This document shows, one piece after another, positions 1,411-4,400 of a DNA stretch of 64,000 nucleotides. Positions within the stretch are counted from its first letter, which is position 1; each line of letters starts with the position of its first letter. The stretch lies in the NCBI RefSeq assembly GCF_035594765.1, contig NC_085842.1, positions 61,108,782 to 61,172,781 of the forward strand. Direction: 5' to 3'. A program made the position numbers. Origin of the DNA: Anolis carolinensis (lineage: Eukaryota).

Positions 1411-4400
1411 TCGAGAAGCAGTGTAATGTAGTGGACTACAACTCTGGAGATGATGGTTCAAATACATACTTAGCCATGGAAATCTTGGATATGTTACATT
1501 TTTTCAGCTTCAGAGAAAGGCAAGGACAACTCCCCTTTGAACAAACTGTGTCAAGATAACCTCATGATAGATCACCATTCATTGGAAATGGTTTCNNNNN
1601 NNNNNNNNNNNNNNNNNNNNNNNNNNNNNNNNNNNNNNNNNNNNNNNNNNNNNNNNNNNNNNNNNNNNNNNNNNNNNNNNNNNNNNNNNNNNNNNNNNNN
1701 NNNNNNNNNNNNNNNNNNNNNNNNNNNNNNNNNNNNNNNNNNNNNNTTTATGTCCTAATCTCTGAAGCAGCAGAAATCACCCTGATTCAACTTCTACATG
1801 ACATTCCTTCAAATATATTGCTCTCAACCTTCTCTTCTCAAAGTTAAACATACCCAGCTGCTCAAGCCATTCTTCATGGGACTGGGTTACTAGACTTTTC
1901 ACTACCCACTTGGTCACCCTCTTTGGAACATGTTCCAACTTGTCACTATCCTTCTTGAACTGTGGTGCTCAGAAGTGGACATCATAGTGATGTCTTACCA
2001 AAGCAGGAGAAAGCAGAATAGTATTTCAGGTCAAATGCATGCTTCTTCCCTTGCATAAGACCTGTTTTCCAAGGCACCTGTTTGCAATCTTTACTTTGGA
2101 CAAACAGATGAGTTTTGTCCTATTGGAATGACGTCAAAGCCTGCAATCTCCTGTCTGTATATCATTTCAACACCAGCAGCGCTAAGGTTTCCTGGTGAGA
2201 TTGCAGCTGCTGGCACTGAGTGATAGAAATCCTATAATGGTAGTTCGATCCAGGGGATGCGGTTAATAAGTTACCAAAATGGCAGCATGTACAGTTCAGA
2301 TGGGTTTCCTAAAGGGATACTCATCAGTTTGCACTGCTAGATCTCCCCACAGTTTGGCAGCAGAGGTCAAAGAACCCAAAGAAAATTGGAATCAGAGTTG
2401 AGTTACCACTGTTAGGACTGCCAACAAGCCTGTGAACTTGTTCTTGAGGAACTGTCCAAACAAATAGACCTAACTGTTCCCTGAAACCATCGCAAGGACT
2501 GTCAGAATGTAATTTGATAGTCTGCAAATTCCTCCAGTCTTTCATCTTAACTGTAAAATACATCTTTATTAAGATTTCTAAATGTTTGAGATTTTCCAGT
2601 CACTATTTCAGGAAAGATCCTGCAGAGGAATGAAGGCATGATAGGAAAAAGGTTAATTATTTGGGTTGTTGTGTGTCTTTCGGGCTGTGTGGCCATGTTC
2701 CAGAAGCTCCTGGAACATGGCCACACAGCCCGAAAGACACACAACAACCCTGTGATCCTGGCCATGAAAGCCTTCGACAACAGGTTAATTATTTCTTTTT
2801 TAAAATAAACCTATGGGATTTATAGGAAATATTAGAAAACATTCTTTCCACTCTCTTCTTCTCTTGTCCTCTTTTTAATCCACCTGTTAATTTATGAAGA
2901 GGATACATTTGATTATTTTGTTACATCAGAAAAAATGGGGCTTTGTAGGTTATATAATGGGTTCCTAATTATGCTACTTTGTTTTTATTTCAAATGTTAA
3001 ATCAAAGTGATATGGCTACTCACAAATTTGGAACATCTAATTTCTAGACTGAAAACAATCCTGCAAGAAATTGAAAATATCTAATTAGCTTTACAATAAA
3101 TAGGTAAAGAGAGAAGGAACAAAATTAATTTGGGAATACCACTTAATGTAAATGTCAAACGAGGGGATGAAATAAATATGTAAAGAGATAACCTGGTGCT
3201 CTCTGTCTTGGCACAGATCAGAAACAATGGAACAAGGTCATTTCCTATGTATTTCCTATGTCACACTGTGAAAGCTGGATTACATCTTTTCCTTTGTTAA
3301 GGATAAATGTTAGAGATAGTGAAATGCCACAGATACATTAATTTGGTGGTATTGTATGGTACAGAAGTGTTTCAGGAAGCCAAAGGGATACGAAAGCAAT
3401 AAATAAATCAAATTAAGTATAAATATGTTTACTGATTTTATATTTGGATAGTAAAATGGGCTTGCAACTTAAAATTGTCTGAATTTTCATGGCTTCCTGA
3501 CTAGAAGTTGCTTTTGTGTTGAAAGTGATGGATAGTGTCAGATGGTGTTTTCTGTGTCAGTGGGACAGTCCTCTTCTGGGCATGGTTCTGCAATTTGTGG
3601 TGGCTTCTCAACTCCTGCGTGAAATCTAGATCCACTACAATATGGCTTCAGGTCTGGCAATGGAACAGAGATAGTTTTGATTGCCTTGGTGGATCACCTA
3701 CATGGGGAACTGGATAGGAGGAACATGTCTCTGTTGGTTTTGCTAGACATGACAGCAGTTTTTGATACTATCAATCATGGTATTCTTCTGAGTCTCCTCT
3801 CTAGGATGGGGCTTGAGGGCACTGTTATGAATACTTTCTGGTCTTTCTTGGAGGGGTGAACTTAGAAGGAGGATTCAGTGCTGTTGGACTCCAGTTTGAA
3901 CCCATGGCCACCTGCAGTCCCCCATGTTATTTAACATCTAAATGAAACTACTGAAGAAGTTCTCCTGAGTTTGGAGGTTGGATGTCACCAGTATGATGAT
4001 GACACCTTCCTCTAGTTCTCCTTTTCCCTATGTTAAACTAGTGTCTGTCATCAGTCATGTATTGAATGAAGGCAAACAAACTGAAACTTAATCCAGACAA
4101 GACAGAGGTGCTCCTGGTCAGTTGAAAGGCATATCAAGGACTAGAGTTTCAGTATGTCTTGGATGAGGTTACACTTCCCTTGAAATGCCAGGTTCACAAC
4201 TTGGGTGTGCTCCTGGACTCAGAGCTGGGCCTGGGTGCCAAGGTGTCTGCTATGGCCAAGAGTACATTTGCAAAGCTAAAACTAGTGCACCAATTGCACC
4301 CATTTCTTGAGAAGCCAGACCTGGCTCTTGATGCACATACCTTAATTACATACTCTTTGGATTACTCTAATACACTCTGTGCCTTTGGAAACTGTTTGCA

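What the first reader, a model, noticed from the sequence alone, without database searches (positions are those of the whole stretch)
2650..2794. Two-endpoint pattern of Penelope-like insertions, shown in minimal form by a 119 bp hairpin-plus-tail insert
Seen: this TSD-flanked insert is just two inverted copies of the PLE end. One arm stops at ...CAACCC and the other runs 31 nt further (TGTGATCCTGGCCATGAAAGCCTTCGACAAC). The same two endpoints recur across the window. Tail-less ends are at 2663, 26670, 28287, 31289 and ~54642; tailed ends are at 2781, 24518 and 28916. Single-ended inserts of each kind carry their own TSD (24464-24518 tailed, 54643-54719 tail-less). Established: PLEs show inverted termini and a ~30-40 nt tail, and from memory in vitro work on an anole PLE found two adjacent RT initiation sites. 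Inference: the two target strands are primed at two different RNA positions and the cDNAs are joined head to head.
Basis: partly seen in the sequence, partly recalled or inferred. Interest (0 to 1): 0.72.

Follow-up and report, generated by a model that had tools for sequence, protein, structure and literature searches.

The report
Minimal two-ended Penelope retrotransposon insert
A 119-base dead fragment of a lizard Penelope-like retrotransposon, inserted as a hairpin with one arm 31 bases longer, is a clean small example of an insertion pattern that is already described and largely explained in print.

Summary
Window 2663-2781 is a 119-bp insert between exact 13-bp target-site duplications. 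It has two 44-nt inverted arms (1 mismatch, no spacer) and a 31-nt tail on one arm. The arms are the first 84 nt of the ORF of an Anolis Poseidon-type Penelope-like element (PLE); the tailed arm runs to +115.

All 9 preserved PLE 3' ends in the window stop at +84 (6) or at +114 to +117 (3).

This is already published for this element. Frangieh et al. 2024 showed two adjacent internal RT start sites, the tail as the sequence between them, and cleavage and extension of both target strands. Arkhipova 2013 and Craig 2021 describe the tail on only one of the inverted ends.

Only the "one end of each class per inverted insert" rule might be new. The window cannot test it:
- 2 of 2 clean inverted inserts fit, but chance gives that with probability 0.20-0.23.
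- All tailed ends belong to one subfamily, and all single tail-less ends to another.
- A third, nested arrangement has two tail-less ends.

No lizard genome could be searched here. Low novelty; good textbook instance.

The parts
2650..2662 (.). Left copy of the 13-bp target-site duplication of the 119-bp insert
   Evidence: Exact 13-nt match to 2782-2794.
2663..2706 (-). Tail-less arm. Sense strand is '-'. Covers ORF positions +41 to +84, with the RT-start end at 2663.
   Evidence: 44 nt, 98% complementary to 2707-2750 with no spacer. Aligns with the other PLE ends. nhmmer E = 2.4e-12.
2707..2750 (+). Second arm. Sense strand is '+'. Covers ORF positions +41 to +84.
   Evidence: nhmmer E = 1.3e-10.
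2751..2781 (+). 31-nt tail, ORF positions +85 to +115 (codons 29-38 plus one base). The RT-start end is at 2781.
   Evidence: Continuous with the arm. The same tail occurs at 24486-24518 and 28887-28916. The coding register was checked against P0003.
2782..2794 (.). Right copy of the 13-bp target-site duplication
24464..24518 (+). Single-ended, tailed, 5'-truncated subfamily A insert (55 bp, ends at +117). 11-bp TSD at 24453-24463 and 24519-24529.
28287..28735 (-). Long tail-less arm of a 630-bp inverted subfamily A insert. It ends at +84 (28287) and reaches back into the last ~50 codons of the ORF. It holds the only copy with an unbroken minimal hammerhead core (28342-28376).
   Evidence: 12-bp TSD at 28275-28286 and 28917-28928.
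28733..28916 (+). Short tailed arm of the same insert: 154 nt plus a 30-nt tail, ATG at 28803, ends at +114.
   Evidence: The inner junction may overlap the long arm by 3 nt (28733-28735).
26672..27505 (-). Subfamily B copy, tail-less end at 26672. It carries the 3' UTR/pLTR and the frameshifted C-terminal GIY-YIG endonuclease part of the ORF. It is 5'-truncated near 27505. No TSD was found.
   Evidence: BLASTP gives 58 of 66 identities to P0003 residues 652-717. The fragment 27017-27253 hits Anolis RT proteins at E = 5e-30 to 2e-26.
31290..31863 (-). Subfamily B tail-less copy inside a 9-bp TSD (31281-31289 and 31864-31872). It is interrupted at 31399-31599.
31409..31515 (+). Opposite-sense subfamily B end, tail-less at 31515, inside the interruption. 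It is followed by 84 nt (31516-31599) of an unrelated repeat family.
54643..54719 (-). Single-ended, tail-less, 5'-truncated subfamily B insert (77 bp). 13-bp TSD at 54630-54642 and 54720-54732.
6862..7176 (-). Old diverged PLE copy lacking the last ~63 nt. Uninformative about ends.

Best explanation
The 119-bp unit is one dead-on-arrival insertion of a Poseidon-type Penelope-like retrotransposon, the PAc/Poseidon_Ac lineage of Anolis. It was made by target-primed reverse transcription (TPRT) on both nicked strands of one target.

Proposed steps:
1. The element's GIY-YIG nuclease nicked the two strands 13 bp apart, each after a T, leaving 3' overhangs.
2. The '+' strand 3'-OH at 2662 primed a cDNA at the proximal internal RT start site of the element RNA, +84 of the ORF.
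3. The '-' strand 3'-OH opposite 2782 primed a cDNA at the distal site, +115.
4. Both cDNAs stopped at about +41/+40.
5. Their 3' ends paired through a 2-nt self-complementary GC.
6. Each cDNA then served as template for the other's second strand. The result is a head-to-head palindrome with a 31-nt tail on one side and a 13-bp TSD.

Basis of each part:
- Shown here: the anatomy, the TSD, the identity of the sequence and the positions of the ends.
- Shown in print: the two start sites and the extension of both strands.
- Inferred: that both cDNAs arose in one event, and how they were joined.

I treat the choice of start site at each strand as not yet known to be coupled.
For: Anatomy:
- A single exact 13-bp TSD surrounds both arms.

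Identity:
- The ends translate to the first 28 or 38 codons of an 836-aa Anolis RT protein, P0003, which matches Pfam RVT_1 and carries a GIY-YIG-like C-terminus.
- The hammerhead core lies where the paper places it. The ORF starts in stem II and the cut site is 26 nt after the start codon, by my count on 28803 onward.

End positions:
- 9 of 9 preserved ends are at +84 or at +114 to +117.
- The inner (tail-less) boundary of both inverted inserts is the very nucleotide at which the other tail-less copies end. Two of those, 31290 and 54643, have TSDs of their own.

Target nicks:
- 8 of 9 inferred primer 3' ends are T (P = 4e-4 at a T frequency of 0.296). This fits the AT-rich/ATT nicking preference reported in print.

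A second example:
- Insert 28287-28916 has the same end pair inside a 12-bp TSD, but unequal arms (about 449 versus 154+30 nt) and a possible 3-nt overlap at the junction. The two arms were therefore made separately.

Literature:
- Frangieh 2024 reports two adjacent internal RT start sites, the tail as the stretch between them, both strands cleaved and extended, and a predicted protein dimer.
Against: - No complete two-ended integration has been reconstituted; the paper says the later steps are not validated.
- In the 119-bp insert both arms stop at exactly the same RNA position. Independent cDNAs would do that only at a defined stop or RNA end. The axis is 11 nt downstream of the hammerhead cut, not at it.
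- A perfect zero-spacer palindrome is also what self-priming would give.
- The protein dimer is only an AlphaFold prediction in the paper and was not tested here.
- Only two clean examples are in the window.
Confidence: 0.6

Rival explanations
1. Self-priming (snap-back). Only the '-' strand is primed, at +115. The cDNA stops at +41, folds back on itself and copies itself. It is then joined to the other target end. This matches the self-priming idea raised for palindromic inverted junctions of rotifer PLEs.
For: The palindrome has 0 nt between the arms and 1 mismatch in 44, so both arms stop at the same position. Arkhipova 2013 (PMC3846280, passages) inferred self-priming from palindromes at inverted junctions.
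Against: The copy-back would have to stop exactly at +84. That is the nucleotide where the independent single-ended copies 31290 and 54643, each with its own TSD, also end. It also cannot give the unequal arms of 28287-28916.
Confidence: 0.15
2. Both strands are primed, but each picks either start site independently. 'One of each' in the window is then chance plus subfamily make-up, and there is no pairing rule.
For: Two of two one-of-each inserts are expected with P = 0.20-0.23 under independence. Frangieh 2024 saw no difference in start site between the strands. The 31290/31515 pair has no tail on either end. Craig 2021 says all other structural variants are also observed.
Against: Two reviews of many families describe the tail as present at only one end, or on one of the inverted pLTRs. 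Free choice would make two-tailed inserts common. The 31290/31515 case is interrupted by another repeat and may be two events.
Confidence: 0.45
3. The insert is a retro-copy or DNA-level copy of an already inverted PLE locus, or two separate insertions at one site.
For: Inverted PLE loci are common and transcribed. PLEs often hit their own sequences.
Against: A single TSD encloses the whole unit, and there is no inner TSD. The left boundary is exactly +84, with no foreign flank. Both arms share a variant base that the other three subfamily A copies lack.
Confidence: 0.05

Closest known systems
PAc (Poseidon_Ac) of Anolis carolinensis, as characterised in vitro by Frangieh et al. 2024 (PMC11167929)
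   Same: The ORF N-terminus matches (34 of 38 residues to an A. carolinensis RT protein). The hammerhead sits at the ORF start. Genomic ends fall at two sites about 31 nt apart, the distal one in the published 111-118 window. Targets are nicked after T in AT-rich DNA.
   Different: Nothing of kind. The window copies are short dead fragments, and a second, diverged subfamily (B) shows only the proximal end here. I could not compare with the Repbase consensus because the .gbk and PDF supplements are unreadable here.
Pen2a_Av and relatives in the rotifer Adineta vaga (Arkhipova et al. 2013, PMC3846280)
   Same: An inverted pLTR lies next to the element. [quoted passage not shown] The TSD is 8-10 bp, and palindromes occur at inverted junctions.
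   Different: Those are full or long copies with pLTRs. The unit here has no pLTR, no promoter and no hammerhead: only ORF positions +41 to +84 and +41 to +115.
L1 twin priming (recalled: Ostertag and Kazazian 2001; not read here)
   Same: Both target strands prime cDNA synthesis on element RNA, giving an inverted structure within one TSD.
   Different: In twin priming the second primer anneals upstream on the RNA, so the two segments are different parts of the element. Here both arms copy the same stretch from defined internal start sites.
Foldback or MITE-type DNA transposons, such as the palindromes at 29543-29726 and 25101-25205 in this window
   Same: Hairpin-forming inverted arms with a short or no spacer.
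   Different: The PLE unit is asymmetric, with a tail on one arm. Its arms are coding sequence of an RT gene. Its relatives are single-ended, with TSDs of 9-13 bp rather than one fixed length.

Membership tests
Penelope-like elements, Penelope/Poseidon clade | Single ORF with a C-terminal GIY-YIG endonuclease | tested here: met
   '-' strand ORF pieces 27281-27535 and 27017-27253 of copy 26672-27505 match the C-terminus of Anolis RT proteins. BLASTP gives 58 of 66 identities to P0003 residues 652-717, which include a stretch I read as the GIY...YIG motif (motif name recalled; no call labelled it).. Pfam itself gave no hit on the two fragments.
Penelope-like elements, Penelope/Poseidon clade | Telomerase-like reverse transcriptase domain in the same ORF | tested here: inconclusive
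   No PLE RT sequence lies in the window. The only RT found, at 12255-13871, belongs to an AP-endonuclease LINE. The full-length relative P0003 has RVT_1 at residues 356-543.
Penelope-like elements, Penelope/Poseidon clade | Hammerhead ribozyme motif in the pLTR at the ORF start | tested here: met
   The CUGANGA...GAAA core (descriptor in part recalled, in part after Cervera 2014) overlaps the ATG as described for PAc. Only 1 of the 5 copies spanning it is unbroken (28342-28376). Two of those 5, the pair at 31290/31515, share the same change. The loose pattern alone is not above chance: 2 hits against 1.66 expected. Rfam gave no hammerhead hit at gathering scores, nor among 47 matches at E <= 10 in 24000-32000.
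Penelope-like elements, Penelope/Poseidon clade | 30-40 bp tail present at one end only | tested here: met
   A tail of 30-33 nt occurs at 3 of 9 ends. In both clean inverted inserts it is on one arm only.
Penelope-like elements, Penelope/Poseidon clade | Head-to-head inverted 5'-truncated copy within one TSD of variable length | tested here: met
   2663-2781 (TSD 13 bp) and 28287-28916 (TSD 12 bp). TSDs of the 5 inserts are 9-13 bp.
Penelope-like elements, Penelope/Poseidon clade | Reverse transcription starting at two internal RNA sites not homologous to the target | not testable with these tools
   This is biochemical (Frangieh 2024). The sequence shows only that the flanks share no homology with the RNA beyond each end.
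L1-type twin priming | The inverted segment derives from a different, more 5' part of the RNA than the direct segment | tested here: not met
   Both arms cover the same ORF positions, +41 to +84.
Foldback/MITE DNA transposon | Symmetric terminal inverted repeats with a family-specific fixed TSD | tested here: not met
   One arm is 31 nt longer. TSD length varies from 9 to 13 bp. Related copies are single-ended.

The most novel reading that the evidence does not exclude
In an inverted PLE insertion the two adjacent RT start sites are used once each as a rule, because one dimeric RNP holds one RNA stem-loop and offers one site to each nicked strand. The cDNA from the proximal site (+84) leads, and the one from the distal site (+115) trails on the same RNA. 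The tailed arm would then never reach further 5' than the tail-less arm, and the two cDNAs would prime each other's second strands. That would explain, in one scheme, the single tail, the head-to-head structure and second-strand synthesis. In the window 2 of 2 clean inserts fit: the arms are equal in one, and the tailed arm is shorter in the other. In subfamily A the tail-less end is seen only as the partner of a tailed end.
Probability: 0.25. Interest if true: 0.55.

Novelty: already known. Interest (0 to 1): 0.22.

Why it matters
PLEs are the least understood major class of retrotransposons, and how they finish integration is open. The two-endpoint signature and its link to two RT start sites are already published for this very element, so the finding adds no new principle.

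Its value is as a minimal natural product. The inverted structure and the one-sided tail form from only 44 and 75 nt of RNA, with no pLTR, promoter or hammerhead. That argues against models needing antisense transcription or ribozyme processing for the inverted arm.

A genome-wide count of end-class pairs would be cheap. It could show whether the two start sites are coupled within one event.

Tried and rejected
RNA families:
- Rfam gave nothing at gathering scores. At E <= 10 in 24000-32000 it returned 47 sub-threshold matches: 38 to microRNA models, on hairpin repeats, and 9 weak matches to other families. None was a hammerhead.
- A loose hammerhead pattern is not above chance: 2 hits against 1.66 expected.

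Protein families:
- Pfam found nothing on the two endonuclease fragments.

Further copies in the window:
- A profile search (nhmmer) and BLAST with the tailed arm found no further ends and no isolated tails. The profile itself does not model the tail columns.
- The other zero- or short-spacer palindromes (29543-29726, 25101-25205, 52907-53002) were considered as further PLE hairpins and rejected. They are unrelated repeat families.

The 31290/31515 pair:
- I first took it as a clean counter-example, with neither arm tailed.
- It lies inside one 9-bp TSD and is split by a fragment of another repeat, so it may be a nested second insertion.
- The two arms share several changes and are about 94% alike by my count on the alignment. 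I could not decide between the two readings.

Junction of the 119-bp insert:
- I considered the hammerhead-cut RNA 5' end as the reason both arms stop together. The axis is at +40/+41 and the cut after +29, so it does not fit.

Literature:
- Searches for a published pairing rule or a newer mechanism paper gave nothing beyond Frangieh 2024, Craig 2021, Arkhipova 2013 and Cervera 2014.
- Pyatkov 2004 and Evgen'ev 1997 are not held. Arkhipova 2006 is known to me only through citations.

Full report
**What is there.**
Window 2663-2781 is a 119-bp insert between two exact copies of a 13-bp target sequence, 2650-2662 and 2782-2794. It consists of three parts:
- an arm at 2663-2706;
- its reverse complement at 2707-2750 (44 nt, one mismatch, no spacer);
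- a further 31 nt at 2751-2781 that continue the right arm only.

Folded as a single strand it forms a 44-bp hairpin (-97.3 kcal/mol, z = -14.4, 0 of 200 shuffles as good).

**Census of related ends in the window.**
I used three searches:
- BLAST with the tailed arm;
- BLAST with the two longest copies;
- an nhmmer profile built from nine ends. The profile does not model the tail columns, so tails rest.

Together they find ten copies. One (6862-7176) has lost its last ~63 nt. The other nine ends align in register and fall in two classes only:
- Six stop at the same nucleotide: 2663, 26672, 28287, 31290, 31515 and 54643. The last is ambiguous by one base.
- Three run 30-33 nt further: 28916, 2781 and 24518.

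Exact TSDs of 9-13 bp flank five inserts: 2663-2781, 24464-24518, 28287-28916, 31290-31863 and 54643-54719. No TSD was found for 26672-27505.

The end at 31515 was missed.

**Two subfamilies.**
The alignment separates subfamily A (2663, 2707, 24464, 28287, 28733) from subfamily B (26672, 31290, 31415, 54643).
- All three tailed ends are A.
- The two tail-less A ends are both the partner arm of a tailed end.
- All four B ends are tail-less.

**What the sequence is.**
On the '-' strand of copy 26672-27505 lie two ORF pieces. They match Anolis proteins of up to 836 aa.
- BLASTP gives 58 of 66 identities to P0003 residues 652-717. That stretch includes what I read as the GIY...YIG motif (motif name recalled).
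- P0003, an A. carolinensis record, has an RVT_1 domain.
- Its first 38 residues match the translation of 28803-28916 at 34 of 38 positions.

The repeated terminus is thus the start of a PLE ORF. Counting from the ATG at 28803, the tail-less ends are at +84 (end of codon 28). The tailed ends are at +114, +115 and +117.

The hammerhead core overlaps the ATG, and the GUC cut site ends at +29. Frangieh et al. 2024 describe exactly this for PAc, the Poseidon element of the green anole: the ORF begins in stem II and the cut is 26 nt after the start codon. Only one of the five copies that span the core has it unbroken. Rfam reports no hammerhead.

**What is already in print.**
Frangieh et al. 2024 (PMC11167929; I read parts 1-2 of 4, that is abstract, main text, legends and the start of the methods) report:
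- the purified protein cleaves and extends both strands of a DNA target;
- reverse transcription starts at two adjacent internal RNA sites that are not homologous to the target, the main one 111-118 nt into the ORF;
- the tail is the sequence between the two sites;
- genomic insertion ends fall on these sites;
- the start site does not differ between top and bottom strands.

Arkhipova et al. [quoted passage not shown] They also describe palindromes at inverted junctions.

Craig et al. 2021 (PMC8557442, passages) describe the inverted 5'-truncated copy. [quoted passage not shown]

Cervera and de la Pena 2014 (PMC4209133, passages) describe minimal hammerheads in pLTRs. Some occur as pairs 100-700 bp apart on opposite strands.

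The two-endpoint pattern, the one-sided tail and the head-to-head arrangement are therefore known.

**How the 119-bp unit most likely arose.**
The single TSD means one event with nicks 13 bp apart.
- The TSD copy lies 5' of each arm on the strand that continues into that arm's antisense strand.
- So the primers must be the '+' strand 3'-OH at 2662 and the '-' strand 3'-OH opposite 2782. This is inference from the anatomy and the TPRT principle.
- Eight of nine such inferred primer ends in the window are T (P = 4e-4). This fits the published AT-rich/ATT nicking.

One cDNA started at +84 and the other at +115. Both reach +41, and the G at +40 could belong to either arm. The junction therefore has a 2-nt self-complementary overlap (read directly).

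In the second inverted insert (28287-28916, 12-bp TSD) the arms differ in length:
- The tail-less arm runs about 449 nt, into the last codons of the ORF.
- The tailed arm runs 154+30 nt.
- The junction has a possible 3-nt overlap.

Unequal arms cannot come from a strand copying itself back. In both inserts the inner boundary is exactly the nucleotide where the other tail-less copies end. I therefore prefer two separately primed cDNAs joined at their 3' ends (confidence 0.6) over self-priming (0.15).

The equal arms of the 119-bp unit remain a point for self-priming. The axis is 11 nt beyond the hammerhead cut, so a ribozyme-made RNA end does not explain them.

A predicted RNA helix pairs part of the arm with the first half of the tail. 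It leaves a 21-nt AC-rich loop that ends at +83/+84. At z = -2.56 for the 75-nt piece this is modest support.

Two of two clean inverted inserts have one end of each class. Under independent choice that happens with probability 0.23 (subfamily A frequencies) or 0.20 (all ends). The window therefore cannot test it.

The locus 31290-31863 shows two facing tail-less ends, which would count against the rule. However:
- The second end sits in a 201-bp interruption (31399-31599) of a copy that is otherwise colinear with 26672 onward.
- That interruption also holds 84 nt of another repeat family, with copies at 14229-14289, 17664-17724 and 30045-30093.
- It may therefore be a later nested insertion.
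- Against that, the two arms share several changes and are about 94% alike, by my count on the alignment.

The published lack of a strand difference excludes a fixed strand-to-site rule. It does not exclude a per-event pairing.

**What stayed unchecked.**
The proposed genome-wide table could not be made.
- The PDF and .gbk supplements of Frangieh 2024 could not be read; only a spreadsheet listing read-archive accessions was readable. They may already contain the end distribution.
- Pyatkov 2004 and Evgen'ev 1997 are not held. Arkhipova 2006 is cited only through others.
- Six literature searches found no statement of a one-of-each rule and no later mechanism paper. They cover open-access papers and preprints only.

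**Verdict.**
This is a correct observation of an ordinary, already explained feature, and a neat minimal instance of it. The only possibly new element, coupling of the two start sites within one event, is untested.

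Noticed in passing
window 31290-31863: One 9-bp TSD encloses a subfamily B PLE copy. It is split at 31399-31599 by an AT-rich stretch, an opposite-sense tail-less PLE end and 84 nt of another repeat. The two PLE ends share several changes. It could be a nested insertion or a complex single event.
   Followed up: partly
window 7170-7176 and 31857-31863: Two independent subfamily B-like copies stop at their 5' side at practically the same element position, just after a T-run followed by AATAYTG. 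This hints at a preferred 5' end, but with only two cases.
   Followed up: no
window 14229-14289, 17664-17724, 30045-30093, 31516-31599: A repeat family whose copies begin right after (TAA)n or AT-rich tracts and share a GC-rich motif. Not identified.
   Followed up: no
window 29543-29726 and 52907-53002: A GC-rich perfect-centre palindrome (92-nt arms, 95%, no spacer) and a shorter hairpin (35-nt arms). By eye the two share a short motif near their outer ends; no alignment was run. MITE-like. The larger one gives the strongest sub-threshold microRNA-model hits in Rfam.
   Followed up: partly
window 25101-25205 and 36126-36203: Two further hairpins (50-nt arms with a 5-nt spacer; 32-nt arms with a 14-nt spacer). 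By eye both contain TATAATGCAGTT, so they may belong to one family; no alignment was run. Unrelated to the PLE.
   Followed up: no
window 10118-13871: A LINE with three successive '+' strand ORFs: one with a weak GDSL-like hit, an AP-type endonuclease and an RVT_1 reverse transcriptase. It is not a PLE.
   Followed up: partly
window 42967-44046: A 359-aa open frame with weak C2H2 zinc-finger matches near its C-terminus, below the Pfam cut-offs.
   Followed up: no
window 1596-1746: A run of 151 N. Left as it is.
   Followed up: no
window 2662, 2782, 24519, 26671, 28286, 28917, 31289, 31516 (and 54642): Eight of nine inferred priming 3' ends next to PLE ends are T, and two of the nine end in ATT. 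This is consistent with the published nicking preference.
   Followed up: yes
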